Shown here: piece after piece, positions 6,854 through 58,013 of the stretch | Numbering within the stretch: position 1 is the stretch's first letter | Layout: each line of letters opens with the position of its first letter | From: an uncultured archaeon | GTDB taxonomy: Archaea > Thermoproteota > EX4484-205 > JAAOZP01 | DNA: 64,000 nucleotides | Direction of reading: 5' to 3' | Assembly: GCA_938045545.1 (NCBI GenBank) | Contig: CALIBN010000010.1 | Span: forward strand, 1-64,000 | Made by a program: the position numbers and the translations under genes | Notes under the pieces: generated by a model | Seen by the model: only the letters and a program-made list of their open reading frames with translations | What the model was told of the DNA's origin: nothing | Database searches by the model: none

Positions 6854-7618
6854 TTAAACCATTAATTGTTGAATGGCCGCCCCAAGGTAGAGCATTATGA
6901 ACGAGGTGAGCATTGCCGCCTGGGGACTAGCCTTGAACCAGAACACTATTGCTGCTGAAAGCAGGAGCGCGCTAAACCCTCCTGAGAGTATTTGAATAAG
7001 CCCGGCGGCTAGGCTGGGCGGGTTTGAAACCACCAGTATCAGGCTGTAGAAGAGCTGGGGAAGGAAGCAGAACGGTAAAGCCGTCAGGAATCCTGTTTCA
7101 ACACTCCTCTTCTGGAAAACAGTTCTGGGAACAAGATAGGCGAGGAGCAGGCTTAGGGCGACACTTCCCAGGGTTGAGGAGAAGCTTACTCTCGCAACCG
7201 GGATCAGCAGGGCGAGGCCCATCTTAGCGTAGAGGCTTGATGCTGAGAGGCTGAGCACTATCAGCGCAGCCATCGGCGTCACCATCCTGCTCGGCAACCC
7301 TGTGAAGAACCATACTGGGACGAGCGTCTCTAAAACCCTGGGTAGTTCTCCTGAAGTCGGAGGGGGCAGTAGGCCTGATTTCAAGGCCAAGTAGACCCTC
7401 CTGCCCTGCTCGCTTAAAGCATACTTCTTGTCGCTGGTCTGTTCGACGAGCTCCCCGAGCGCTAGGAGATTATGGTAGAGGCTGCCCGTGCTCAGGCCCA
7501 GCTCCCTCTTAAGATCCTTGATGCTCATAGACCCGGTTTCCCCTAGCTTCATCAGCAGGGCTCTCCTCTTGCCGTATGAGAGAGCAAGTATAACCTTCTC
7601 CAGGCCCTCCTCCTCCAC
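6854..7618 (-). CDS. membrane-anchored ArsR-like winged-helix protein
   Basis: N-terminal wHTH (LSTGSLYHNL) followed by several hydrophobic segments. Confidence 0.7.
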   Translation of the reverse strand: MEEEGLEKVILALSYGKRRALLMKLGETGSMSIKDLKRELGLSTGSLYHNLLALGELVEQTSDKKYALSEQGRRVYLALKSGLLPPPTSGELPRVLETLVPVWFFTGLPSRMVTPMAALIVLSLSASSLYAKMGLALLIPVARVSFSSTLGSVALSLLLAYLVPRTVFQKRSVETGFLTALPFCFLPQLFYSLILVVSNPPSLAAGLIQILSGGFSALLLSAAIVFWFKASPQAAMLTSFIMLYLGAAIQQLMV

Positions 7619-7743
7619 GGGCTTTAAAAACGCGAGAGGAATATAAAAACATCATGTCTGCAATGCGTCAGCCGGTTTAAAATGGGAAAAACCGGCAGCC
7701 TTTCAGCCAGGATGCTTGTTGAAGCCTCCTGAGGTTGTGAAGC

Positions 7744-8820
7744 CTAGTGTTCAGCAGGCCTGTATGAGCCGAGCAGCCTAATCTCCACAGCCCTACGCTT
7801 AAGATTCTCCAGCGCTCTATGCACACCATGGTCCCAGGAGGCGCCCTCAAACTCCACTAGAAACATGTACTCCCAGGGCTTGCCCCTTACGGGTCTAGAC
7901 TCTATTCTGGTCAGGTTTAAACCATGCTTCGCAAAAACTCCGAGAGCCCTGTACAGGGAGCCGGGCTTATGCTCCAGAATCATTATAAGCATTGTTCTCG
8001 CATCCCCCTTAAACTTCTTCGAGGCTTCTCTAGAGAGGACTAGGAAGCGGGTGTAGTTCTCCCGCTCATCCTGAATATTCCTGGCTAGGATTCTCAAGCC
8101 GTATTCTCTTGCAGCAGCCTCGGAGCACACTGCCGCCCCACCCCTTGTTTTAGCCGCCATCAAGGCAGCCTTAGAGGTGCTTGAAACCTCCCTTATCCTT
8201 GCTTCCGGCATAACCCTGTCTAGAAACATCCTGACCTGTGCTAGGGCGTGAGGGTTGGAGAAAACAATCCTAACGTCTTCAAGCCTCCTCTCCCTGGATG
8301 AAAGGTGGAAAGCTATTTTCAAAACCTCCTCGCCGACGATGCTGAGGCTCGAGGAGGCTAGGCAGTCAAGCGTTTCAGAAACAGAGCCCTCAAGGCTGTT
8401 TTCAACCGGAGCAACCCCGTAGTCAGCCTCAGCCTCCTCAACGCTTTTAAAAACGCTTCTAATCGTGGGGTAGGGCTGAAGAGCGTAGGGCTTACCGGAG
8501 AAGTATTTCTCAGCAGCCTCCATCGTGAACGAGCCTCTTGGCCCCAGGTAGGCTACTTTAAAGCACCCCTGGACCCTCCTGCTGTGGTCTATTATGATGC
8601 TGAAAACCTTTTCAACCAGAACGGGGTCTAAGCCTCTTGCAGAAGCCTTTTCAAGAACATGCTTGTAAACCTCTTTCTCCCTATTCTCATCTACAACGGG
8701 TAGCCCAAGCCTCTTCTTCTCCCCGCCTATCATTCTCGCAACCCTGATCCTCTCAGCGATAGCTTCGACGAGCTTCTCGTCAACCCTGTCCATCATCCTC
8801 CTCATCTCCTTGAGACTCAA
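7744..8820 (-). CDS. pheA: chorismate mutase / prephenate dehydratase
   Basis: AroQ-like N-terminus, YLGPRGSF, ENSLEG, NYTRF, ACT motif NLTRIESRP. Confidence 0.95.
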   Translation of the reverse strand: MSLKEMRRMMDRVDEKLVEAIAERIRVARMIGGEKKRLGLPVVDENREKEVYKHVLEKASARGLDPVLVEKVFSIIIDHSRRVQGCFKVAYLGPRGSFTMEAAEKYFSGKPYALQPYPTIRSVFKSVEEAEADYGVAPVENSLEGSVSETLDCLASSSLSIVGEEVLKIAFHLSSRERRLEDVRIVFSNPHALAQVRMFLDRVMPEARIREVSSTSKAALMAAKTRGGAAVCSEAAAREYGLRILARNIQDERENYTRFLVLSREASKKFKGDARTMLIMILEHKPGSLYRALGVFAKHGLNLTRIESRPVRGKPWEYMFLVEFEGASWDHGVHRALENLKRRAVEIRLLGSYRPAEH

Positions 8821-23090: not shown

Positions 23091-24656
23091 TTGGAGGAGA
23101 AGCAGATAGTGGTTAAGGATTTAAGGCTGATGGTCTCTGCAGACCTTTACTTAAGCCGAGAGCTGCGGGGGGATGAGGTTGAAAGGGTTGCGGAGTATGC
23201 CGTTTCAAGCTTCCCAAGAGTATTCGCTCGGGGGGCGGTTAAGGGCGAGGAGCCCAAGATAGTTGAGCTGACCGTCACCAGGGAGAGGGTGAGCGTCACG
23301 GTGGAGTCTGGAAGAAGGGTTAGGGCACATGAAGCTGTTAAAAGGGCTAGGAAGGTCTTGGGCGATGAGCTTGGGCCTAAAATGGGGCTGGGCGTCAGGG
23401 GGATCAACGTCAAGTCTTTCCAAGTAGCTTTCATAGGGGAAAACCTAAGGGAGGTGAGGCTCCCGTTTGTTAGGAAGGTCGAGAAGACGGGGGAAGGCTT
23501 GAAATACTGGCTTGAGGTCGACGAGTCTGGCCTCTACGCTCAGGTTCCCGACAGGATCATAAGCCTTTTCCTGGAGAAGCAGGAGGCCCGTGCAATAGGC
23601 AGAGAGGTTCACAGAGTTGTCTGGCGTAGCTCGGAGAAGCCTGTTAAGTATGCTTCGGACCCTGGGCTGCTGCTGGAGGAGGAGGGGTGGGTTAAAAGAT
23701 TCCACCCCGGCATATGGTACTACCTCCAGCCCTACACTAGTCTTCTGAGAATACTTGAGGAAATGATTATTGAGAAGGTTGCGAAGCCGCTGGGCTTTCA
23801 GGAGGTTGTTCTACCTAAGCTTATACCGCTTGAAGTCGCGAGGAAGAAGGGCCACCTCTCCGGGATCCCTAGCGAGATGCTTTACGTCTGCGAACCCGGT
23901 TCAAGGGAGCCTTCCTACTTCGAGGATTACACTGACCTGGTTAAGGTTTTCAACGAGCCTAAGCCCGAAATCTTGAAAACGTTTCTGAAGGAGCCTGCTT
24001 ACACTCTTCCATACGCGCAGTGCGAGCCCTTCTACGAGCTTTTCGCCGGGGAGACCGTGAACCTTGACAACCCTCCTGTCAGGCTTTACGACAGATCCGG
24101 GTTCAGCTTCAGGCATGAGGCAGGAGGCTTAAGAAGCCTCGAGAGGCTTACAGCATTCACAAGGATAGAGATAGTCTATCTTGGCAGGCCTGAGGAAGTT
24201 GTTGAGATTAGAGATAGGCTGGTGGAGAACTATCTGAGACTGCTCGACAAGACGCTTGACATAGAGGTCAGGTCTGCCGAGGTAACCCCGGTCTGGATGG
24301 CTCACGCAGGCGTCATAAAGGATGTTTCCAGAAACATCGCCGCAACCTTCGACATTGAAGCCTACCTCCCGTTTAGAGGAGACAGGGAAAGCGAGTGGCT
24401 TGAAATAGCCAACGCGTCTGTCCACTACGACAAGTATGTTGATTGGTTCAACATTAAGGAGAGAAAGGGGAGGGAGGTTTGGACCGGTTGCTCAGGCAAT
24501 GGTCTTGAAAGATGGGTCTATGCTTTCCTAGCTAGACATGGCTTCAACGCTGAAGACTGGCCTGTAGAAGTGAAGAGGCGGTGGCCAGACTTTAAGCCTG
24601 TGATCATGGACACTTGGCCTCCTCGAGCGTTGAAGAAGCCTCCTGAATCATCTTAA
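23091..24656 (+). CDS. serS: seryl-tRNA synthetase, methanogen type (type 2)
   Basis: N-domain ESGRRVRAHEA, YAQCEPFY, DRSGFSFRHEAGG, F.RIE, TGCSG.GLERW. Confidence 0.9.
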   Translation: MEEKQIVVKDLRLMVSADLYLSRELRGDEVERVAEYAVSSFPRVFARGAVKGEEPKIVELTVTRERVSVTVESGRRVRAHEAVKRARKVLGDELGPKMGLGVRGINVKSFQVAFIGENLREVRLPFVRKVEKTGEGLKYWLEVDESGLYAQVPDRIISLFLEKQEARAIGREVHRVVWRSSEKPVKYASDPGLLLEEEGWVKRFHPGIWYYLQPYTSLLRILEEMIIEKVAKPLGFQEVVLPKLIPLEVARKKGHLSGIPSEMLYVCEPGSREPSYFEDYTDLVKVFNEPKPEILKTFLKEPAYTLPYAQCEPFYELFAGETVNLDNPPVRLYDRSGFSFRHEAGGLRSLERLTAFTRIEIVYLGRPEEVVEIRDRLVENYLRLLDKTLDIEVRSAEVTPVWMAHAGVIKDVSRNIAATFDIEAYLPFRGDRESEWLEIANASVHYDKYVDWFNIKERKGREVWTGCSGNGLERWVYAFLARHGFNAEDWPVEVKRRWPDFKPVIMDTWPPRALKKPPESS

Positions 24657-24879: not shown

Positions 24880-26278
24880 TCCTTTCGAAAGCCTCCATGA
24901 AGGAGTGAAATCTTCTCCTGGGCACGGTTGCACCGGCTGCAACATCATGCCCTCCTCCGAGCCCTCCGGATTCTCTGGCAGCGTTCGAAGCCAGCATGCT
25001 ACCTTTAATACCCTTCTCAACAAGGCTCCTCGGAACCCTTATTGAAACCTTGAGCGAATCATCCTCAGCGGCGGTTACGACCAGGATCTTGCCAAGATCC
25101 TTGGGAAGGCTGGAGAATATTATTGAGGCAACCGGGCTCAACACTCTTTGGTCTATGATTCCCTCGCCGTTGTAAAGCAGTATTTTTTCAGACTCGATCT
25201 TGGCCCCCGGCATGCTTAGAAGGTTTGAGAGAGATTTTGAGATGGCTGTCCTGTATTCCCGACTCACTCGTTGAGCCTCCTCAAACATTCTGCCTCTTTC
25301 ACCCATCGCAACCGCCAAGCCTACGGCTGAACGCCCCATTCTCGCGCAAGAGTTCAACAGGGCTGAGAACTCCCTGCCGTCTCTTAAAACAGTGCCTCTG
25401 GGCTCTTTTTCAAAGACATAAATTGTGCCAAAAAGGTTTTGAGCACTCTCGGGTGAGAAGCCAAGGTCAGCGATATACTGCATTAAACCTGCGAGAAGCC
25501 TTGACCTCTCAGCCTGTGAGAGGTCGCTGAAAGTCCTCCATTTGTCATCAGTCTTAACCTCTATGCCGAGGCTTCTTAAAAGGTTTAGAGCAACATTCTC
25601 ATCACCACTCAGCCCAGGTATTATGAAGTTCGACGAGGAAGATATTGAGACATGTATCGGCAGGGTTTCCCTGCCGAAGAACACGAAGTCCTCCTCGACC
25701 CTAACTATGTTCATCTCCTCTCCTTCAAGAACTATCGTAGAGTTTAACCCTGTGAGCGACCTGTTAACACCCGTGTCCTGCATGTCGGCCAGCGCGCCGA
25801 CTATGGCTAGCTCATTCATCCTTGAGAAGTCTTCAACCAGGTTCTTGAAAACCAGGTATGAAACCCCTGAGCCGGAGATTTCTGAGCCACCGTTTAAACC
25901 ATGCTCATTAGGGTTCAGCATGAGAACACTGTTCGAATCGCCCTCAACCTCATGATGGTCAAGTACGACGACCCTGGAAGGATCCAGAACACTCGTTATC
26001 TCGCTCAAGTATCCTGCCCCAATATCCAGGAAAAGCACGGGCCTGGGGGGGAATGCAATGCTTTCCAGAAACACCCTGTCTATCTGAGTCACGGACCTTG
26101 CTGAGAAGGATACACCCATGCTTTTCAAAGCGAGACAAGCTATAGCTGCGGCAGCAGTGCCGTCTGCATCTGCATGGAAAACTATTAACGCATCACTCCA
26201 GTCGAAGGAACCCAGCCTGCTCGCAAAATCCCTTGCTTCAAAAATGAACCTCCTCTGAGTCTCCGACGCATGGCTCAT
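24842..26278 (-). CDS. DHH/DHHA1 RecJ-Cdc45 (GAN-like) protein
   Basis: HADADG, LDHH, GGGH..AAG. Confidence 0.9.
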   Translation of the reverse strand: MSHASETQRRFIFEARDFASRLGSFDWSDALIVFHADADGTAAAAIACLALKSMGVSFSARSVTQIDRVFLESIAFPPRPVLFLDIGAGYLSEITSVLDPSRVVVLDHHEVEGDSNSVLMLNPNEHGLNGGSEISGSGVSYLVFKNLVEDFSRMNELAIVGALADMQDTGVNRSLTGLNSTIVLEGEEMNIVRVEEDFVFFGRETLPIHVSISSSSNFIIPGLSGDENVALNLLRSLGIEVKTDDKWRTFSDLSQAERSRLLAGLMQYIADLGFSPESAQNLFGTIYVFEKEPRGTVLRDGREFSALLNSCARMGRSAVGLAVAMGERGRMFEEAQRVSREYRTAISKSLSNLLSMPGAKIESEKILLYNGEGIIDQRVLSPVASIIFSSLPKDLGKILVVTAAEDDSLKVSIRVPRSLVEKGIKGSMLASNAARESGGLGGGHDVAAGATVPRRRFHSFMEAFERNVAERFSMLRGS

Positions 26279-26715
26279 ATTTTTGCTTCAAGAACCTTCA
26301 GGTCGGGTAGGGGCACCTTCCTCCTAGAGTAGTAACGAGCAAGCCTCCTAATCTTAGACTCCACCAGTTGAAGATTGTGAACGTTGAAACGGTCAGACCT
26401 GTTCCTAGTTAAATGAGTAACCATCCTCTCAGCCTTAGCCACAAGTCTATCAAGATCCTCAGTCCTGGAGAACCTGACCCCCTTTTCGAGAAGTATTCTC
26501 GAAATCTTTTTACCAGTTATATTCCTGACGGATGGAACCCCGTACGAGTCCCTCAGGATCAACCCTATTTGAGAAGGACCATGCCCCTCTGACGCAAGCT
26601 TGACCACAAGCCCCTCAACCTCCTCAGGCTTCAACGACAACCATGGCGGAGCCCCACTGTAGACTACTCTACGTGAACCCGACTTACCCTTCTTATGGCT
26701 ATGCATCCTAGCCAA
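26275..26715 (-). CDS. rps15: ribosomal protein uS15
   Basis: ARMHS.KKGKSGS, LRDSYGVP, ESKIRRLARYY. Confidence 0.95.
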   Translation of the reverse strand: MARMHSHKKGKSGSRRVVYSGAPPWLSLKPEEVEGLVVKLASEGHGPSQIGLILRDSYGVPSVRNITGKKISRILLEKGVRFSRTEDLDRLVAKAERMVTHLTRNRSDRFNVHNLQLVESKIRRLARYYSRRKVPLPDLKVLEAKI

Positions 26716-26919
26716 TCTTTAAGCCAACTTTCTCTTGCAACCCCCCTATTTAAGCGTTCCCTGAAAACACTCCCTGACCCAATAGCACGAAACGTTCGTT
26801 CTTCACACGAAGCTTCAACAGCCGGCAGTAGAATCGACACCGCTTCAGAGGTTGCGTGCGACGAGCATAACGTGCGTGGTAAAAACAAAGAAGTAATGGT
26901 TTTCAAGGACAGACACCGC

Positions 26920-27134
26920 TAGACCTACCGAACCTTCCTCACATTCCCCTTTAGTCGAGAGATTCCGGGTTTGTCAGCCAAGCTTCATCCTAAGTGGTTG
27001 GGACTCGTAAAAAAGCCTCTGTCGTACGCGTATAAAACATGACCCGTTTCATAATGCCCATCGCACCATTAAGTCCATGTTGTAAGAATACCATAACCTA
27101 AGCATAACTGTTTATAATCATAATAATGACAATC
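26920..27134 (-). pseudogene. remnant of a Cys-rich gene that shares its 5' part with the cassette gene
   Basis: Reads DCHYYDYKQLCLGYGILTTWT*WCDGHYETGHVLY; begins at the left repeat copy. Confidence 0.5.
27102..27134. repeat. 33-bp direct repeat, left copy
   Basis: gcataactgtttataatcataataatgacaatc, identical to 29755-29787. Confidence 0.95.
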
Positions 27135-27137
27135 AAA

Positions 27138-27821
27138 CTAATAATTTTCGGATCTCAGATTTTTAGATTCAGATGCTACAAGGTCAACCAAAACTTCATC
27201 CTCAGTGACATCAACATCAGAAACCTCAAGCCTATCTATGTCTAATGAGAGTCCATAACCTAGAATACGTTTAGCCAGTTTATTTTTAATTAAATTCTCT
27301 GACAGGAATCGGATGAATTCGAGCATCTCATTAAAATTGAAGTGGAAGGCTCCCACCGTCATCCTTAATCCGTATTCGGGTTCAAGCTCGACGAACAAGT
27401 TCATATCCGGAAAGACTAATATTTCCCTTCCGTCCGTTAATGGTTTCACCCGTGGATCGTTTTTAACTTTCTCGATACACATACCTGTGAGGATTTCGTA
27501 CTCTTTCTCTATCTCCTCAAGCGTCTTCAAGTGTTCCTTATACGAGGCTTCCTCCATAAGAAACTCCATCGTAATTTCATAAACTTTATTTTTCCCAGTA
27601 AGGGCTAGGCTTAGTAGTCTTTCCACTAAAAATCCGACGCTCCTCGGATCATCTGTATAAACATCGATTCCAAAAATTATACCCTCACGTCGATCTTTAC
27701 CAACTAAAGCTATATGACACTCTTTAGTTGCTTCTCTCCAAAACTTCTCAATACATGATTCACTGTTGGCTCTGGCAGCTTCGTATTTATCACCCCATCC
27801 CCAAACAGTAATCCTACTCAT
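27138..27821 (-). CDS. hypothetical acidic protein
   Basis: 227-aa ORF 6 nt after the LAGLIDADG stop, ending next to the left repeat. Confidence 0.75.
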   Translation of the reverse strand: MSRITVWGWGDKYEAARANSESCIEKFWREATKECHIALVGKDRREGIIFGIDVYTDDPRSVGFLVERLLSLALTGKNKVYEITMEFLMEEASYKEHLKTLEEIEKEYEILTGMCIEKVKNDPRVKPLTDGREILVFPDMNLFVELEPEYGLRMTVGAFHFNFNEMLEFIRFLSENLIKNKLAKRILGYGLSLDIDRLEVSDVDVTEDEVLVDLVASESKNLRSENY

Positions 27822-27827
27822 TTCTCA

Positions 27828-28730
27828 TCATCCCTTTTTGGGCCTCCCTCCCTTTAATTTACCCTCCTCGTACGCTTTTAAGAATTCTTCGAATTTCTCT
27901 ACATGTGCAGGACTATAGCTTCCTATTTCTTTAATGAACCTTATCCGATCTTGAGCATATATCTCTAAATAATGCGTCCCATAAGTCTTATCAAGACGAA
28001 CCTCAGAAGGCTGAAAACCTATCTTTACTAAGGCTTCTCTTACCTCTTCCAAGCAATCCCCGTACTTTGAAGATATTCGAAGTTTAATTGAATACCTTCC
28101 ATGTCTTGCAACACTTCCATCTCCAGAGAAGAATCCTCTTAAATACGCTTTAATACCATCTTCGTCCAAATGTTCTAAGGGTACATGATACCTGTAAGGT
28201 CCGGTTTTAGCCCCAATCTCCCTCAGATCATAATATGCCCTTTTATCTTTTATCCCCGCTATAAATTCGCCCTTACCACAGTAAATATGCGGAGATCTAT
28301 TATAAACCTTCTCGAACAACTCAATATACCTTTCGATGAGTTCCATATCAGCAGAGTGAAAGAAGATTTGGCGAGACTCTCCCTCATAGGGAGATAAGCT
28401 GCCTTCTGCAGCTATAAGGCCGCATAATTCCGCTTTCTCAGGAGTAAGAATTTCTCTAATCCCACTACTATATACTTCTAACAATGTCCCATGGCTCAGA
28501 GGAAACAAAATTCTATCTTCTTTTATTCTTGCTTCTGCAAAAGTTGAGATAACATCATTTCCTCTAAATAGCTCATATTCTCCACTTTCTGTTACACCCA
28601 CTTTATATTCGCCAAAATCCATTATCTCCCTATAAGCCTTTTTATAACATTCTTTCTCTCGTTCTGTTAGAAACAGCTTTCCCTCCCGAAACCTTGACGC
28701 ATATTGATCTATTAATGAGCCCCCGCCCAA
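27828..28730 (-). CDS. free-standing double-motif LAGLIDADG endonuclease-like protein
   Basis: AELCGLIAAEGS and AYLRGFFSGDGS; no intein splice-junction motifs. Confidence 0.85.
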   Translation of the reverse strand: MGGGSLIDQYASRFREGKLFLTEREKECYKKAYREIMDFGEYKVGVTESGEYELFRGNDVISTFAEARIKEDRILFPLSHGTLLEVYSSGIREILTPEKAELCGLIAAEGSLSPYEGESRQIFFHSADMELIERYIELFEKVYNRSPHIYCGKGEFIAGIKDKRAYYDLREIGAKTGPYRYHVPLEHLDEDGIKAYLRGFFSGDGSVARHGRYSIKLRISSKYGDCLEEVREALVKIGFQPSEVRLDKTYGTHYLEIYAQDRIRFIKEIGSYSPAHVEKFEEFLKAYEEGKLKGGRPKKG

Positions 28731-29820
28731 CTCTTACTTCTCCTCAGCCAATCCAGCAAATTATGAAGAGCCAGTATTCTTTTACAGGATTCTGGACTTT
28801 CCACCCATAAATTGATAAGATCCTGTGGCATCTTACCTCTACAAGCATCACAATAACATTCCTTAAATCTTATCTTCTCGTCCCGCATATCGTATAATTT
28901 GGCGTCTCGAAAATAAAGGCCATGTTTAGCTTCAAGAAACCATGAAAAATTGCTATAACTTATCTCTTTGTATCCAAGTTTTCGTCCAACTCCGTAAATA
29001 AGTATTTCAAGTTTTTTATTATTAACTCTACCAAGCCTCTTCAACATGAGTAACACATGAGGAAGAAGATCGTTTAACAAGCCCTGCTCAAAAAGTTCCC
29101 TTGCAGGCATAACAAATGAAACATAATTCATTTCAACTTCCCTTCTAAGAGACATATAGATCTGACGCAGATTTGCGCCCTTGATTAAGCCAATTAACGG
29201 AATATCGAGATCTAAAAAATCATTTGCAAGCGATATTAATCGCATAGTTTGAGACCAAGATTGGTATAATGGGGCGTCAACATAAGTATAGTTATCGGGA
29301 ATCATTGTAGCATCTGGCCTTAACTCTTTAATCAGTTTCAAGTAATCATCCTTCGTAAGCTTATCAATAAGCTCATCAGGCATAACCGTGGACAACAATA
29401 TCTTTCCATTAAATTTAGAAAATCGTGAAGACCTTTGCTTGAAGCCCCCGACAATAAATCGCCATTAAGAAACAGTTGCCAGAGAGGGACAAAAATAGCA
29501 GGTGCATCTATTTCTTCTCTCCAAAACCATGATTCACGATTCCCTATATCAATTTGAGGAACAAACGTTGAAAAGTTAATCTTAGGCATATCCTTTTTCC
29601 TTAAATGATGAAGAAGGATGAGAGGTGGCCTCGTTAGCCCTCCAATAGGGCAGTATGCCCTCAACTTGCAGAAAGATTTGGGGTATGTAATACCTGAGAA
29701 AGAAATACCCCTGGGACATGAATCTACGAGGCAACGTTCAATTGCACAGCCTGGGCATAACTGTTTATAATCATAATAATGACAATCTATACACGAGATT
29801 CCGCACTTACTTTTCCTCAT
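28712..29820 (-). CDS. divergent TGT-fold (DUF4417-like) protein with Cys-rich N-terminus, split by a -1 frameshift near 29410
   Basis: Joins ORFs 29338-29820 and 28712-29398 as LHDFLN(F/L)NGKILLST; PDNYTYVD.P; C-terminal CYCDAC...LALHNL zinc motif. Confidence 0.7.
29755..29787. repeat. 33-bp direct repeat, right copy (inside the TGT-like coding start)
   Basis: Identical to 27102-27134; encodes DCHYYDYKQLC on the minus strand. Confidence 0.95.
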
Positions 29821-30373
29821 GCCTGCTCAGGAACCATGATGCAAATTTTCTTAACGCCCGAGCCCTGTGAGAAAACTTATTCTTCTCCTCAGTGCTCATC
29901 TCCGCGAAAGTCAGGTTAGAGCCGAAAGGTATGAAGAGGGGGTCATAACCGAACCCGCTTTTCCCGCGTGGCTCTGTTGCGATTGTCCCGTCGACTCTTC
30001 CTGTGAAGATTTTAACATCTTTGCCCGGCTCGCCGTATGCTAGGGCTGTCATGAAGTATGCTGATCTGTCTGCTGAGCCTGTTAGAAGCTTCAGTATTCC
30101 CTCGCAGCCTATCTTCCTGTAAACGTATGAGGAGTATACTCCCGGGAAGCCGTTCAGAGAGTTTACGAATAGCCCGGAGTCCTCGATTATGAAGCGTTCC
30201 CCTATTTTTTTCAAAGCCTCCTGGGCGCATTTCTCAGCAACCTCCTCCAGGGTTTCCGATTGGGGCTCGGTTATTTCAAGGTCAGCCTGTTCAAGCGTTA
30301 TCCCGAATTCCCTGAGCAGTTTCTGCGCCTCGAGGAATTTCCCAAGGTTTCCCGTTATGAAGACTAGCTTCAT
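29807..30373 (-). CDS. rdgB: XTP/dITP diphosphatase (Ham1)
   Basis: TGNLGK, EDSGL, GFPGVYS, GFGYDP, SHR. Confidence 0.95.
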   Translation of the reverse strand: MKLVFITGNLGKFLEAQKLLREFGITLEQADLEITEPQSETLEEVAEKCAQEALKKIGERFIIEDSGLFVNSLNGFPGVYSSYVYRKIGCEGILKLLTGSADRSAYFMTALAYGEPGKDVKIFTGRVDGTIATEPRGKSGFGYDPLFIPFGSNLTFAEMSTEEKNKFSHRARALRKFASWFLSRHEEK

Positions 30374-30436
30374 CAGCCATTTTCCCCTTTGAGACCTATT
30401 AAAGCTTAAAACTTCTCAGGAGGCGAGTATGCGGGT

Positions 30437-31645
30437 ATGGAGTATCAGGATGGTGAGGCTCTGGTGTGCATGGATTGCGGTGCAACCCATGAGCCTGAGG
30501 GAGGTTTACTCGTCTGCGGGAAATGCGGGGGGCTCTTGGAGGTTGCTTACCCTAGGAGTGTTTTCAGAAGCGTCTCGTTCAACGGCAGGGGTGTTTGGAG
30601 GTATAGGAGCATCCTCCCTAGGGTTGAGAGAACCGTCACTCTGGGCGAGGGGGATACTCCGCTGGTTAAGGTTGAAAGGCTTGGAGAATCCCTTGGTTTG
30701 AGAAACCTCTACGTAAAGTTTGAAGGGGCGAATCCAACTGGTTCTTTTAAAGACAGGGGTATGACTGTAGCCGTCAGCATTGCCCTCAAGTTCCATGCTA
30801 GGAGTGTGGCGTGTGCTTCAACAGGAAATACTTCAGCATCAATGTCGGCCTACGCTGCAAGGGCTGGCTTAAGGAGCATCGTCTTCCTTCCAGACGGATA
30901 TGTTGCCCCGGGGAAGCTTCTCCAGGCTGTTGCCCATGGGTCCACGATAGTCAGGGTCAGGGGGAACTTTGACGAAGCCTTGAAAACGCTTCTCTCGCAC
31001 CGGGAGGAGCTCGGTGTTTACGTTTTAAACTCCGTGAACCCGTATAGGGTTGAAGGTCAGAAGACAGTTGCCTTCGAAATATGGGAGGGCCTTAACCGTA
31101 CTCCTGATTTCGTCGTGTACCCTGTTGGAAACGCGGCCAACATATCCTCAGGCTGGAAGGGTTTTAAAGAGCTGGTTGAAGCTGGGCTGGCTGATTCCAA
31201 GCCGAGGATGATAGGGGTTCAGGCTGAGGGAGCCGCCCCAATAGCAAAGGCCTTCCTCCGGGGAGAGGAAGCCATAGAGACTGTTGAGAAGCCCGAGACT
31301 GTTGCGACAGCAATAAGGATCGGTAGGCCGTTTTCCTGGAAGAGAGCGCTCAAAGCGTTAAGAGATTCGCGGGGGACAGCGGTTACGGTTAGCGACGGGG
31401 AAATATTGAGGGCTCAGGTAGACCTCGCTAGGATGGAGGGCTTGTTCGCTGAGCCGGCTGGAGCAGCCCCGGTGGCGGGCCTAGCTAGGCTTTCTAAACA
31501 AGGGTTCTTCAAAGGTGATGAAACGATCGTCGCCGTGGTTACGGGACACGGCTTGAAGGATCCTAGTGTAAACATAGAGCCCTATGCTGAGCTCATAATC
31601 CACCCTGGTGAAAACCCTGCGGAGGCTTTGAGGAAACTGCTATGA
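30437..31645 (+). CDS. thrC: threonine synthase
   Basis: NPTGSFKDRG, ASTGNTSAS, TGHGLKD. Confidence 0.95.
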   Translation: MEYQDGEALVCMDCGATHEPEGGLLVCGKCGGLLEVAYPRSVFRSVSFNGRGVWRYRSILPRVERTVTLGEGDTPLVKVERLGESLGLRNLYVKFEGANPTGSFKDRGMTVAVSIALKFHARSVACASTGNTSASMSAYAARAGLRSIVFLPDGYVAPGKLLQAVAHGSTIVRVRGNFDEALKTLLSHREELGVYVLNSVNPYRVEGQKTVAFEIWEGLNRTPDFVVYPVGNAANISSGWKGFKELVEAGLADSKPRMIGVQAEGAAPIAKAFLRGEEAIETVEKPETVATAIRIGRPFSWKRALKALRDSRGTAVTVSDGEILRAQVDLARMEGLFAEPAGAAPVAGLARLSKQGFFKGDETIVAVVTGHGLKDPSVNIEPYAELIIHPGENPAEALRKLL

Positions 31646-56546: not shown

Positions 56547-58013
56547 TCATCTTGAGAAAAAGAGTGTATATTCCGAAAGGGGTCTTTGCACGCGCGCTCC
56601 CCCCTCTTCGGGCCTGTAGAGAGACCTGTGGCAGTGCCCTATTACGCGGATCTCGCTCAGGTCCTTATTCTCTAAAAGTTTCTTCATCATCTCCTTGGGA
56701 TTCGCATCCATAGGAAGGCCGAGCTCATGGCCGTGGCTAAACCTTACTACCTTCCAATTCGCTAACTTGACCTTTATCCTTTTCTTCGAGAACCTCCGGA
56801 GCATCGTCAGAATCCTTATGGCTTCCACCAATATCGGATGCGGGCTATACAGTTGAGGTTCCCACGGTCCCCTCGCAAACGTAAACCTTCTCAGGGTCTT
56901 TAAAAACTCGGGAGCGTTTGAATCCGAGCATCCAGACACGTACCTCATGCGGGCGCCGAGGTCCTTCAGAAAGTCGAGGAAACTAATGATGTGCGATGCC
57001 TTTGGCTTCCCCTCCACGAAGTCGAATACGTCGCCCAAGAGGACCAGGTGGGTCGGGTGGATCTCCATGAGCCTCCTCAAGCACGGCAGCCAGAGTGATT
57101 GGGGGACACCTATGTGTAAATCCCCTACGACCGCTAAGCAATCATCCTTCTCCAATATCATGTCGTAAACAGGTATCTCATCCAGCTTTCCCTTCTCCGC
57201 ATACTCTTTGAGCATGACCCAATCGTGCCACGCTATGTCATCCGGGTTTTCAGCGATCTGGTTTGGGAACTTAGCTGAGCATGCCTTACAGTTACACTCA
57301 ATGAGGTCTCTTTCCAGGTCTATGATGCCCACGCCGGATGACGTGCCCGCATAAGCATGCCAATTCTTGGCCTCTATTAGCCAAGACATGCCCGCCAGGG
57401 AGATTTCAGGGTCTGATTTGTAGAGATCATGCAGGCCTTTGAGGCCTAAGGCCCCTATCATCAGGGGCTTCGCCCCGATTTCGTATATCTTCACCAGCCC
57501 CAGCGAGTAGAGGTCGTCGGCGATTTTAGCCATATCCTCATGGACCTCGGCGCCGCGGCTTCTAGCCAGAACGTACTCGGTGGCGTGAAGCCCAACCCTC
57601 CTGAAGCCCATTTTCTCCAGCCACTCCGCGTGGAGCGCCATCTCTGAAGGGTCTACTCCCTTCAGCAGCGTATCGTTGGTATCCCCTCCTCAACATACTT
57701 CATCGTTAGGAGCGTGGCCTCGATCAGATTGGATAAATTCAAAGCCTTGGAGTACTCGGCGTAAACGGGCATATCCCACCCAATCACCCCATTGAAGTCT
57801 CCTTTCTTTGTAAAAGCCCACGGTGAAGTTGAACGTCTCTTCGGTTAGGAGCCTATCCGGCATTATTGTTGAGAGCAGGATTTGACCATCGAATTCTAGG
57901 AAGTTGTGCACTCCTTCCTCTTTAACCCTTTTTATGTTCTCGCCGTCGCCATACTCCAAACGAATATACCGAAATACCAAAACAACATTTTGAAAAACCC
58001 TTTTTATACGCAT
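56547..58013 (-). pseudogene. TGT-fold (DUF4417-like) domain fused to a metallophosphoesterase, with two frameshifts
   Basis: GVHNFLEFDGQILLSTIMPD / GWDMPVYAE...GIPTI / LLKGVDP...SWLIEAK...CNCKAC...IAWHDW, then DLH, GD, HGH, GHCH; shifts near 57810 and 57670. Confidence 0.7.

What the first reader, a model, noticed from the sequence alone, without database searches (positions are those of the whole stretch)
27138..29820. Candidate new system: Cys-rich TGT-like protein + double LAGLIDADG nuclease + orphan
Seen: three tightly coupled AT-rich genes directly behind rdgB. Gene 1 has about 9 N-terminal Cys, a barrel with PDNYTYVD.P and the TGT zinc motif CxCxxC...H, but SNFSW where TGTs have the catalytic D-S/C motif. 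Gene 2 is a LAGLIDADG protein outside any intron or intein. Gene 3 is an acidic unknown. Known: TGT paralogs (DpdA) exchange bases in DNA in restriction-modification-like systems. Inference: a base-modification or base-recognition protein paired with a homing-type nuclease and a possible immunity protein, forming a defence or selfish module I do not recognise as described.
Basis: partly seen in the sequence, partly recalled or inferred. Interest (0 to 1): 0.85.

Follow-up and report, generated by a model that had tools for sequence, protein, structure and literature searches.

The report
Small tRNA-targeting mobile element without integrase
The three genes are one decaying copy of a 2.7-kb selfish DNA element that has spread to many tRNA genes in a group of hot-spring archaea, and it carries no known integrase, only a disabled-looking base-exchange enzyme, a homing-type nuclease and a protein of unknown fold.

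Summary
The three low-GC genes behind rdgB are bounded by a 33-nt exact direct repeat 2653 nt apart. A 96-97% identical relative lacks exactly that unit.

The same cassette occurs at 7 or more places in this 2.03-Mb genome and in most genomes of its order. The order matches Candidatus Brockarchaeota-type MAGs by record titles. Typical copies are 2.65-2.9 kb, flanked by 25-135-nt repeats and placed at the 3' end of a tRNA gene.

- **Gene 1** has a clear TGT fold (ArcTGT Z 26.9). It keeps the zinc site and the base-binding Asp, but both catalytic Asp positions are lost. In the window it is broken by a 1-nt deletion.
- **Gene 2** is a double LAGLIDADG nuclease with both acidic residues kept. Its N-terminus is conserved as MG[GSA]G[STK].
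- **Gene 3** matches no family or fold.

All three genes are under purifying selection (dN/dS 0.08-0.22). No integrase or transposase lies inside the unit.

My best reading is a new, self-contained, nuclease-driven integrative element (confidence 0.5). The mechanism is inferred, not shown. Rival readings are mobilisation in trans and a mobile defence or addiction module.

The parts
29740..29787 (.). Left copy of the flanking direct repeat (33-nt exact core 29755-29787). It lies inside codons about 12-27 of gene 1.
   Evidence: family D1: 48 nt, 88%, spacing 2653; the core occurs only twice in the whole genome
27087..27134 (.). Right copy of the direct repeat (exact core 27102-27134). It starts 4 nt after the gene 3 stop.
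   Evidence: The relative G006 has a single copy with both flanks joined.
29338..29820 (-). Gene 1, first piece: Cys-rich N-terminal region. Nine Cys are invariant in the family, including a CxxxCxxC spacing. The start overlaps the rdgB stop by 14 nt.
28712..29464 (-). Gene 1, second piece (open frame 29464 to stop 28712): TGT-fold barrel with the zinc motif. The two frames are joined by a 1-nt deletion near 29416.
   Evidence: 1109 against 1110 nt, one gap; X2 and X4 contigs have a C put in behind 29414; for the fold
27828..28730 (-). Gene 2: free-standing double LAGLIDADG nuclease with an MGGGS N-terminus. An acidic residue is kept in both motifs.
   Evidence: PF14528, 55.3 bits against cut-off 22.5; D/E109-G110 and D204-G205 conserved in 20 sequences
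27138..27821 (-). Gene 3: acidic 227-aa protein of unknown family and fold. It is the fastest-diverging of the three genes.
   Evidence: pLDDT 91; best Z 6.6; dN/dS 0.14-0.22
26764..27086 (.). About 320 nt between the right repeat and the region upstream of S15. It is present in G000 and G006 but absent from more distant species, where rdgB and the S15 region lie 37-150 nt apart. It is probably older element-derived residue.
   Evidence: No rdgB-like remnant was detected in it (score 27 against shuffle mean 28.6).
29807..30373 (-). rdgB/Ham1 gene. Its 3' end is the insertion site of this element lineage.
   Evidence: A related element in another family of the order duplicates 135 nt of the rdgB 3' end (L056/L095).

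Best explanation
The region is one decaying copy of a previously undescribed family of small (2.65-2.9 kb) integrative selfish elements of Brockarchaeota-type archaea.

Each element is one operon of three genes:
1. A Cys-rich protein of the TGT/DpdA superfamily. It keeps the zinc site and the guanine-binding Asp but lacks both catalytic Asp residues. I read it as a base-binding or partner-binding subunit, not a transglycosylase.
2. A site-specific nuclease. It has a conserved Gly-rich N-terminal tail (MG[GSA]G[STK]...Q..RRF) followed by a double LAGLIDADG domain. In some relatives the domain is swapped for a PD-(D/E)XK-like one.
3. A fast-evolving protein of unknown fold.

Different lineages sit at different sites. 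Most are at the 3' end of a particular tRNA gene. The window's lineage is at the 3' end of rdgB.

Shown:
- Repeat-bounded units.
- Precise presence/absence between close relatives.
- Many diverged copies per genome.
- Purifying selection on all three genes.
- No known recombinase inside the unit.

Inferred:
- The nuclease makes a double-strand break at the target or at the element's copy of it. Host recombination across the short shared stretch then inserts the unit, leaving the 25-135-nt duplication.
- Recombination between the repeats removes the unit again, as in G006.
- Gene 1 docks on or controls the nuclease through its N-terminal tail.
- Gene 2 and/or gene 3 set the site specificity.

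The window's copy has a frameshifted gene 1 and is probably no longer autonomous.
For: Boundaries and mobility:
- A 33-nt exact repeat flanks the unit at a spacing of 2653 nt.
- G006, 96-97% identical in the flanks, lacks exactly that unit and keeps one repeat copy.
- More distant species have rdgB next to the S15 region.
- The tRNA-Ala(CGC) site of another copy is occupied in G000 and G016 but empty in G006, G002 and G008. G006 carries the 90%-identical element elsewhere.

Copy number:
- Gene 1 matches 8 places, gene 2 10 places and gene 3 13 places in the 2.03-Mb genome.
- Relatives have up to 21 gene 1 matches per genome. Matches occur in 13 of 16 genomes of the genus.

Surveys:
- Genome loci: 53 examined; 37 have all three genes; 19 are complete and internal to their contig. 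Of those 19, 13 have a tRNA gene within 350 nt, 10 have an exact flanking repeat of 20 nt or more (span 2663-2906), and 16 have either.
- Metagenome loci: 80 examined; 23 complete and internal. Of those 23, 8 have a tRNA gene, 5 a repeat, and 12 either.
- Control: 123 of 20000 random 2.7-kb segments of the genome have a tRNA gene that close.
- Five of the 25 tRNA genes that ARAGORN finds in G000 adjoin a cassette.

No recombinase inside:
- Pfam finds only TGT (weak) and LAGLIDADG in the cassette.
- The four tyrosine recombinase genes of G000 lie elsewhere. None is within 9 kb of a tRNA gene.

Proteins are functional:
- dN/dS is 0.08-0.22 in the 14 of 16 pairs that could be computed.
- The LAGLIDADG acidic residues are conserved.

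Specificity module:
- Two elements with 95% identical gene 1 have 73% identical gene 2 and 49% identical gene 3. They sit at tRNA-Val and tRNA-Ala respectively.

Gene 1 and gene 2 as partners:
- The linkage also holds in a 25-30% identical long family, where gene 1 is fused to a metallophosphoesterase.
- It also holds where the LAGLIDADG domain is replaced, with the same N-terminal tail kept.
- MG opens 91 of 110 downstream ORFs.
Against: - No circular or excised form was seen. None of 18 small contigs has a terminal overlap. The only runs available are assembled contigs, which cannot show rare junctions.
- Nuclease activity, its site, and any gene 1-gene 2 contact are untested.
- Repeats at tRNA 3' ends are the classic footprint of tyrosine integrases, and four such genes exist in the genome. 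Mobilisation in trans is therefore not excluded.
- Long repeats mean that a nuclease site lying inside the repeat survives insertion. Simple homing logic does not explain how the occupied site stays stable.
- In two lineages, including the window's, the repeat is a piece of the element's own gene: the gene 1 5' end here, and the LAGLIDADG gene 3' end in the tRNA-Gly lineage. My model does not explain this cleanly.
- Of the complete internal cassettes, 3 of 19 and 11 of 23 show neither a tRNA gene nor a repeat with my exact-match criteria.
- The loci in the two surveys overlap in organisms and are not independent.
Confidence: 0.5

Rival explanations
1. Non-autonomous mini-elements. The repeats are att sites used by tyrosine integrases encoded elsewhere, on larger elements or in the host. 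The three genes are cargo, for example an addiction or defence module that helps the cassette persist.
For: tRNA 3'-end targets with 23-76-nt identity blocks look like integrase att sites. Four Phage_integrase-family genes over the cut-off are in G000.
Against: At least nine different tRNA targets, plus rdgB, would need matching integrases. None of the four integrase genes lies beside a tRNA gene or a cassette. Element lineage and target co-vary with genes 2 and 3, which suggests that specificity is encoded in the cassette. The repeats often include site-specific flank beyond the tRNA.
Confidence: 0.2
2. A mobile defence or restriction-like module. Gene 1 reads a guanine-type or modified base in DNA, or holds the nuclease inactive. 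Gene 2 cuts, and gene 3 regulates or neutralises. The units spread as restriction-modification genes do, by insertion with long target duplication.
For: Gene 1 belongs to the TGT/DpdA superfamily: DpdA 7ui4 Z 21.7 and Cap10 9ntn_B Z 16.3, and the PADLOC TGT model at E 6e-9 for the long form. Repeat-flanked, low-GC nuclease units without mobility genes, placed at gene 3' ends, are described for restriction-modification systems (PMC2853133, passages read). The Gly-rich N-terminus of the partner recalls the M(G/S)G(G/S)GG motif of type IV CBASS CD-NTases that Cap10 binds (bioRxiv 10.1101/2025.04.06.647259, abstract and passages read).
Against: Seven or more diverged copies per 2-Mb genome, many of them broken, each at its own tRNA gene, is not how defence systems are usually distributed. 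No known defence family matched genes 2-3 beyond 'homing endonuclease'. No modification enzyme is evident, because the catalytic Asp residues are lost. No canonical TGT and only weak QueC matches are present in the host.
Confidence: 0.2
3. Ordinary free-standing homing endonuclease genes with two passenger genes, copied into empty alleles by break repair.
For: Gene 2 is a LAGLIDADG enzyme with catalytic residues. Insertion is site-specific per lineage.
Against: Homing leaves no long direct repeats. All three genes are conserved together and under selection. The nuclease domain can be swapped while gene 1 and the N-terminal tail stay.
Confidence: 0.07

Closest known systems
tRNA-guanine transglycosylases and DpdA (TGT superfamily: ArcTGT 1iq8, bacterial TGT, QTRT2, DpdA 7ui4)
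   Same: (beta/alpha)8 TGT fold with Z 21.7-26.9 over about 280 residues. The CxCxxC...H zinc site and the base-recognition Asp are kept.
   Different: The general acid/base Asp and the nucleophile Asp are replaced by Ser and by Ser/Ala/Val. Both are invariant in TGT and DpdA according to PMC10164549 (passages read). There is an extra N-terminal domain with nine invariant Cys. No DpdB-like ATPase is present. Pfam TGT scores 17.2 bits, below the 26.3 cut-off.
Type IV CBASS Cap10 with its CD-NTase (N-terminal deazaguanylation)
   Same: A TGT-family protein is encoded beside a partner enzyme whose N-terminus is a conserved Met-Gly, Gly/Ser-rich tail: MG[GSA]G[STK] here, M(G/S)G(G/S)GG there. Cap10 is among the structural matches (Z 16.3).
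   Different: No QueC-like Cap9 and no CD-NTase are present. Cap10 keeps its nucleophile Asp, and this family does not. Cap10 is not the nearest structure. No adduct or complex has been shown here.
Restriction-modification units inserted with long target duplication (PMC2853133)
   Same: A nuclease-bearing, low-GC unit of a few kb, with no transposase or integrase. It is flanked by direct repeats longer than 30 bp, sits at the 3' end of a gene, and a related genome has the empty site.
   Different: There is no methyltransferase or recognisable modification enzyme. The host is archaeal; that survey reports that no archaeal case survived its selection. Targets are mostly tRNA genes. Many paralogous copies occur per genome.
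Integrative elements of archaea that use tyrosine recombinases at tRNA genes
   Same: They target the 3' part of tRNA genes, have direct repeats at both ends, and the tRNA gene is kept intact.
   Different: No recombinase gene lies within the 2.65-2.9-kb unit.
Free-standing LAGLIDADG homing endonuclease genes
   Same: Double-motif LAGLIDADG enzyme outside any intron or intein.
   Different: It is always with two other conserved genes, is flanked by long repeats, and has a conserved extra N-terminal region of about 90 residues.

Membership tests
TGT/DpdA superfamily (fold level) | TGT-type (beta/alpha)8 barrel | tested here: met
   Model pLDDT 82.9. Foldseek 1iq8_A at E 8.3e-11, TMq 0.64. VIA-align Z 26.9, rmsd 2.5, 284 residues aligned; unrelated TIM barrels score 13.2 or less.
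TGT/DpdA superfamily | Zinc site CxCxxC...H | tested here: met
   C322, C324, C327 and H353 are invariant in 21 sequences and align to the ArcTGT site.
TGT/DpdA (as an enzyme) | Nucleophile Asp (ArcTGT D249, DpdA D256) | tested here: not met
   The aligned position is Ser/Ala/Val within the SYSNFSW segment. This rests on a sequence-profile alignment; the spacing to the other landmarks agrees.
TGT/DpdA (as an enzyme) | General acid/base Asp (D95) | tested here: not met
   It aligns to the invariant Ser144 (LLS). An invariant Asp149 lies 5 residues later, and its role could not be checked in 3D.
TGT/DpdA | Base-recognition Asp (D130) | tested here: met
   The invariant D176 of PDNYTY aligns to FLDIP of ArcTGT.
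TGT (Pfam PF01702) | Score over the gathering threshold | tested here: not met
   17.2 bits against 26.3. 18 of 21 family members match only weakly, best E 2.3e-5.
LAGLIDADG endonucleases | Two LAGLIDADG motifs, each ending in an acidic residue followed by Gly | tested here: met
   PF14528 at 55.3 bits, over the 22.5 cut-off. D/E109-G110 and D204-G205 are conserved in 20 sequences.
LAGLIDADG endonucleases | Site-specific DNA cleavage | not testable with these tools
   Needs purified protein and the att or empty-site DNA.
Tyrosine-recombinase integrative elements | Integrase gene within the repeat-bounded unit | tested here: not met
   No PF00589 match lies in any cassette. The four genomic matches are elsewhere.
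Tyrosine-recombinase integrative elements | Direct repeats that include the 3' part of a tRNA gene | tested here: met
   Not met for the window's own copy, whose repeat is a piece of gene 1.
Restriction-modification units inserted with long target duplication | Repeat over 30 bp, insert under 20 kb, no other mobility genes, empty site in a relative | tested here: met
   33-nt exact (48 nt at 88%) repeat, 2653-nt unit, G006 empty site.
Restriction-modification units inserted with long target duplication | [quoted passage not shown] | tested here: not met
   No methyltransferase is present, and gene 1 lacks the catalytic Asp residues.
Type IV CBASS (Cap9, Cap10, CD-NTase) | QueC-like Cap9 and a CD-NTase in the operon | tested here: not met
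   Neither was found in the cassette. The genome has only weak QueC-family matches.
Type IV CBASS (Cap9, Cap10, CD-NTase) | Partner with a Met-Gly, Gly/Ser-rich N-terminal tail beside a TGT-like protein | tested here: met
   M1 and G2 are invariant in 20 partners. MG opens 91 of 110 downstream ORFs, and most of the rest have the motif a few codons in. The motif comparison is with passages of the preprint.

The most novel reading that the evidence does not exclude
Gene 1 is a TGT-fold 'reader' that takes the Gly-rich N-terminus of its partner nuclease into the old base pocket, as Cap10 does with the deazaguanylated N-terminus of its CD-NTase. The tail may carry a nucleobase adduct. In this way gene 1 would control or tether the nuclease, so that the pair acts as a new kind of integrase-free DNA insertion machine aimed at tRNA genes.
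Probability: 0.12. Interest if true: 0.92.

Novelty: categorically new. Interest (0 to 1): 0.8.

Why it matters
If the unit moves by its own three genes, it is a class of mobile element with no transposase, integrase, Cas1 or retro-enzyme. It would be built from a homing-type nuclease and a repurposed tRNA-modification fold.

It would give a concrete mechanism for 'insertion with long target duplication'. That phenomenon is known for restriction-modification genes but has no known enzymology.

It would be a second case, after type IV CBASS, of a TGT-family protein paired with a partner that has a Gly-rich N-terminus. This one would be in archaea and linked to DNA cleavage.

The elements occupy a sizeable share of the tRNA genes in these genomes, so they also matter for annotation and genome evolution in this uncultured lineage. 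Site-specific nucleases with swappable specificity modules are of practical interest as well.

Tried and rejected
- **rdgB remnant.** I looked for a decayed copy of the rdgB 3' end in the 437 nt right of gene 3. The local alignment score was 27, against a shuffle mean of 28.6, so nothing was found.
- **Circular forms.** None of 18 contigs under 3.3 kb has a terminal overlap. The 2950-nt contig L097 is an integrated copy in tRNA-Ser with a 27-nt repeat.
- **Sequencing runs.** Nine runs were listed, all held as assembled contigs, with no RNA holder listed. Laying X1-X4 gave no joint across the unit and no back-joint. In X1, which may be the source sample, the unit is its own 2670-nt contig at depth 24.8, against 35.5-35.7 for the flanks. 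I do not use this as evidence, because contig depth is no share of cells.
- **Complex prediction, gene 1 with gene 2.** No verdict: scores 0.01 and 0.07 against a mark of 0.32.
- **Gene 3.** No PHROGs, NCBIfam, Pfam or PADLOC family. The Atlas gave no usable hit. Foldseek best was E 3e-3 at TM 0.26. VIA-align best was Z 6.6. hhalign to the third gene of the long family gave probability 0.2.
- **Gene 1 in the Atlas.** Only leads under 0.9: DUF4417, DpdA, TGT.
- **Rfam.** No match on 26000-31000 at E up to 0.1.
- **tRNAs.** No tRNA gene in the window.
- **Viral contigs.** 22 pattern matches, none confirmed.
- **Literature.** Searches on LAGLIDADG with transglycosylase and integrative element, Brockarchaeota with mobile genetic element, LAGLIDADG with tRNA gene, direct repeats and integrase (0 papers), free-standing LAGLIDADG in archaea and DUF4417 found no description of this cassette. 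Subscription journals and supplements were not searchable.
- **Classical homing.** Considered and rejected because of the long repeats.
- **Radical SAM.** The CxxxCxxC spacing at the N-terminus of gene 1 raised this idea. No Radical_SAM match appeared and the barrel is TGT-type, so I did not pursue it.
Full report
**What is in the window**

Four genes lie in a row on the minus strand:
- rdgB/Ham1, 29807-30373 (PF01725, E 6e-56).
- A Cys-rich gene split over two frames, 29338-29820 and 28712-29398.
- A LAGLIDADG gene, 27828-28730 (PF14528, 55.3 bits, cut-off 22.5).
- A 227-aa acidic protein, 27138-27821 (pI 4.81), with no family.

The genes overlap or nearly touch: 14-nt overlap, 19-nt overlap, then a 6-nt gap. 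GC is 0.389, against 0.513 in the flanks.

The split of gene 1 is one missing base near 29416, relative to the intact 369-aa ortholog of a relative (L060; 87.7% nt identity, one gap). Contigs from two other runs carry an extra C behind 29414. An independent assembly of the likely source run agrees with the window. The window's gene 1 is therefore genuinely frameshifted in this assembly.

**Boundaries**

A 33-nt exact direct repeat (48 nt at 88%) lies at 29755-29787, inside codons about 12-22 of gene 1. The second copy is at 27102-27134, 4 nt after the gene 3 stop. The spacing is 2653 nt. The core occurs nowhere else in the genome.

In G006 the flanks are 96-97% identical, but the two flank matches overlap by about 42 nt and the unit is missing. 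Its sequence shows one repeat copy joining the two sides. More distant species of the genus have rdgB and the S15 upstream region 37-150 nt apart. So about 320 nt right of the repeat (26764-27086) is also not ancestral.

G016 and G002 (87% identity) have the full arrangement. G006 therefore most likely lost the unit by recombination between the repeats.

**A multi-copy element**

Within the 2.03-Mb genome (51 contigs, 92% complete), gene 1 matches 8 places, gene 2 10 places and gene 3 13 places. They occur in the same order at 7 loci plus fragments. Identities to the window's copy are 61-67% for gene 1, 44-48% for gene 2 and 33-37% for gene 3.

In 41 genomes (G000 and 40 relatives), 25 have a match at E up to 1e-3:
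- 13 of 16 in the genus.
- 2 of 2 and 5 of 6 in two other families of the order.
- The few 'same phylum' matches are 25-27% identical 513-521-aa frames, probably ordinary ArcTGT.

A pattern scan of one genome per species gave 52 confirmed loci. All are on MAG contigs titled Candidatus Brockarchaeota, Thermoproteota, Nitrososphaerota or the like. One more is a 2950-nt contig binned as Fervidobacterium, which is an integrated copy in tRNA-Ser.

The whole protein family is rare: 192 clusters at E up to 1e-3 among 1.84 billion representatives.

**Targets and repeats**

Genome loci, 53 examined:
- 44 have genes 1 and 2 together.
- 37 have all three genes.
- 22 have all three genes covered at 85% or more.
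- 19 of these are internal to their contig. Of the 19, 13 have a tRNA gene within 350 nt, 10 have an exact flanking repeat of 20 nt or more (25-135 nt, span 2663-2906), and 16 have one or the other.

Metagenome loci, 80 examined:
- 51 of the 56 with at least 1200 nt downstream have the LAGLIDADG gene.
- Of 23 complete internal cassettes, 8 have a tRNA gene, 5 a repeat, and 12 either.

Control: random 2.7-kb segments of G000 have a tRNA gene that close in 123 of 20000 trials.

Targets seen are tRNA-Ala, Leu, Val, Ser, Met, Gly, Thr, Arg, Glu and Trp. The rdgB 3' end is also a target, with a 135-nt exact repeat in a genome of another family. The repeats cover the tRNA from about the T-arm to the 3' end, plus some downstream flank. 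One intact tRNA gene remains.

The tRNA-Ala(CGC) site is occupied in G000 and G016 and empty in G006, G002 and G008. G006 has the 90%-identical element at another tRNA-Ala gene.

The two survey sets overlap in organisms and are not independent samples.

**Gene 1**

The family alignment has nine invariant N-terminal Cys, including a CxxxCxxC spacing. It also has invariant D149, D170, D176, Y180, D182, K214, E242 and W294, and the zinc ligands C322, C324, C327 and H353.

The AlphaFold model (pLDDT 82.9; the N-terminal 70 residues are poor) gives these matches:

| Structure | Score |
|---|---|
| ArcTGT 1iq8 | Foldseek E 8e-11; VIA-align Z 26.9, rmsd 2.5, 284 residues |
| Bacterial TGT | Z 22.6 |
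| QTRT2 | Z 21.8 |
| DpdA 7ui4 | Z 21.7 |
| Cap10 9ntn_B | Z 16.3 |
| Other TIM barrels | Z 13.2 or less |

The family profile finds ArcTGT by sequence at E 2e-10. In that alignment the base-recognition Asp is kept. The general acid/base Asp aligns to an invariant Ser, and the nucleophile Asp aligns to Ser/Ala/Val. The DpdA paper states that all three Asp residues are invariant in both TGT and DpdA, and that either catalytic mutant kills guanine exchange (PMC10164549, passages read).

Gene 1 is therefore a member of the fold superfamily. It is unlikely to exchange bases by the known mechanism.

**Gene 2**

Both LAGLIDADG motifs keep the acidic residue followed by Gly in all 20 aligned sequences. 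An extra conserved region of about 90 residues precedes them, and M1 and G2 are invariant.

Of 110 ORFs that start next to the gene 1 stop, 91 open with MG (MGGGS 31, MGSGS 17, MGAGS 15 and others). Most of the rest have the motif a few codons after an alternative start.

**Gene 3**

The model is confident (pLDDT 91): two alpha/beta units. It has no meaningful structural match.

**Selection and mosaicism**

dN/dS is 0.09-0.13 for gene 1, 0.08-0.18 for gene 2 and 0.14-0.22 for gene 3, in the 14 of 16 pairs that could be computed. Two pairs were saturated.

Many copies are nevertheless broken, including the window's gene 1 and the G016 ortholog's gene 2. Post-insertion decay is expected of a selfish element.

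Two elements share 95% identical gene 1, but only 73% identical gene 2 and 49% identical gene 3. They sit at tRNA-Val and tRNA-Ala. This points to genes 2 and 3 as the specificity module.

**Relatives with other architectures**

A 25-30% identical long family fuses the Cys-rich TGT-like protein to a metallophosphoesterase (PF12850). It is followed by a LAGLIDADG-like protein that starts MGQ(Y/F/L)S, and often by a roughly 200-aa protein with a RecX-type helix domain (PF21982, 32.5 bits).

In five metagenome loci gene 1 is followed by a 526-aa protein instead. It has the same N-terminal tail but a different body, with weak, sub-threshold TnsA-like and PD-(D/E)XK-type matches.

The constant pair is therefore 'TGT-like protein plus nuclease with this tail'.

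That recalls type IV CBASS. There the TGT-family protein Cap10 binds the N-terminus of its CD-NTase, which begins M(G/S)G(G/S)GG and carries a 7-amido-7-deazaguanine on Gly2, installed by the QueC-like Cap9 (bioRxiv 10.1101/2025.04.06.647259, abstract and passages read).

Points against a simple transfer of that model:
- No Cap9-like gene is present.
- Cap10 keeps its nucleophile, and this family does not.
- G000 has no canonical TGT over the Pfam cut-off.
- G000 has only weak QueC-family matches.

**How it most likely works**

Shown: a repeat-bounded unit, precise presence/absence, many site-specific lineages, three conserved genes, and no known recombinase inside.

Inferred: the nuclease breaks the target, or the element's own copy of it. 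Host recombination across the 25-135-nt shared stretch then inserts the unit and creates the duplication. Recombination between the repeats removes it.

This resembles the 'insertion with long target duplication' reported for restriction-modification genes. Those are low-GC units without mobility genes, placed at gene 3' ends, and no archaeal case was found in that survey (PMC2853133, abstract and passages read).

Gene 1 probably binds or gates the nuclease. The role of gene 3 is open.

Unexplained:
- The repeat in the window's lineage is a piece of gene 1 itself, and in the tRNA-Gly lineage a piece of the LAGLIDADG gene's 3' end.
- It is not clear how an occupied site escapes re-cutting.

**Rivals**

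- Mobilisation in trans by the four tyrosine recombinases elsewhere in the genome. None is beside a tRNA gene or a cassette.
- A mobile defence or addiction module.
- Plain homing, which does not fit the repeats.

**Novelty**

Five literature searches found no description of this cassette. Subscription journals and supplements could not be searched.

As a gene set and as a way of moving, it lies outside the known kinds. I call it categorically new, with the caveat that autonomy and mechanism rest on comparative evidence only.

Noticed in passing
whole genome G000 (not in the window): No canonical TGT/ArcTGT was found. PF01702 gives no match over the cut-off, and all four weak matches are cassette gene 1 copies, while all 14 control genomes have one. 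QueC-family matches are weak, best 29.4 bits. The assembly is 92% complete, so absence is not shown. The lineage may lack the archaeosine pathway.
   Followed up: partly
L047 and L048; L138-L143 (relatives): A second three-gene module is 25-30% identical in gene 1. It consists of a Cys-rich TGT-like protein fused to a metallophosphoesterase (600-650 aa), a 385-824-aa LAGLIDADG-like protein starting MGQ(Y/F/L)S, and a roughly 200-aa protein with a RecX-type helix domain. No flanking tRNA gene or repeat was looked for systematically.
   Followed up: partly
L231:6042-7622 and 7615-8760 (metagenome locus): Here gene 1 is followed by a 526-aa protein with the same MGSGT...Q..RF tail but no LAGLIDADG domain. 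It has weak TnsA-like/PD-(D/E)XK matches (E 0.02-0.04, below cut-off). A 381-aa unknown protein follows it.
   Followed up: partly
window 57843-57938 (minus strand): Short weak match to residues 120-151 of gene 1 (E 7.5e-5, 47% identity, 115-aa open frame). It is possibly a remnant of another cassette. More fragments lie on the same contig beyond the window (C10:88522-89192 and 92567-92722).
   Followed up: no
window 29806-29820 and gene 1 residues 6-13: The first three invariant Cys of gene 1 have the CxxxCxxC spacing typical of radical SAM clusters, and six more invariant Cys follow. No Radical_SAM family match was found, and the AlphaFold model is poor there (pLDDT under 60 for residues 1-60).
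   Followed up: no
G000 contigs C11 and C42 ends: Two contigs end inside gene 1 of near-identical cassettes. The cassettes act as assembly-breaking repeats, so the copy number in these MAGs is probably undercounted.
   Followed up: no
window 23091-24656: A 521-aa seryl-tRNA synthetase-like ORF. I recall this form as the unusual one known from methanogens. That is my recollection, not a tool result.
   Followed up: no
whole genome G000: ARAGORN finds only 25 tRNA genes in 2.03 Mb. Several calls near cassettes have odd anticodon loops, suggesting introns. Intron-containing tRNA genes are probably missed, so tRNA adjacency of cassettes is an underestimate.
   Followed up: no
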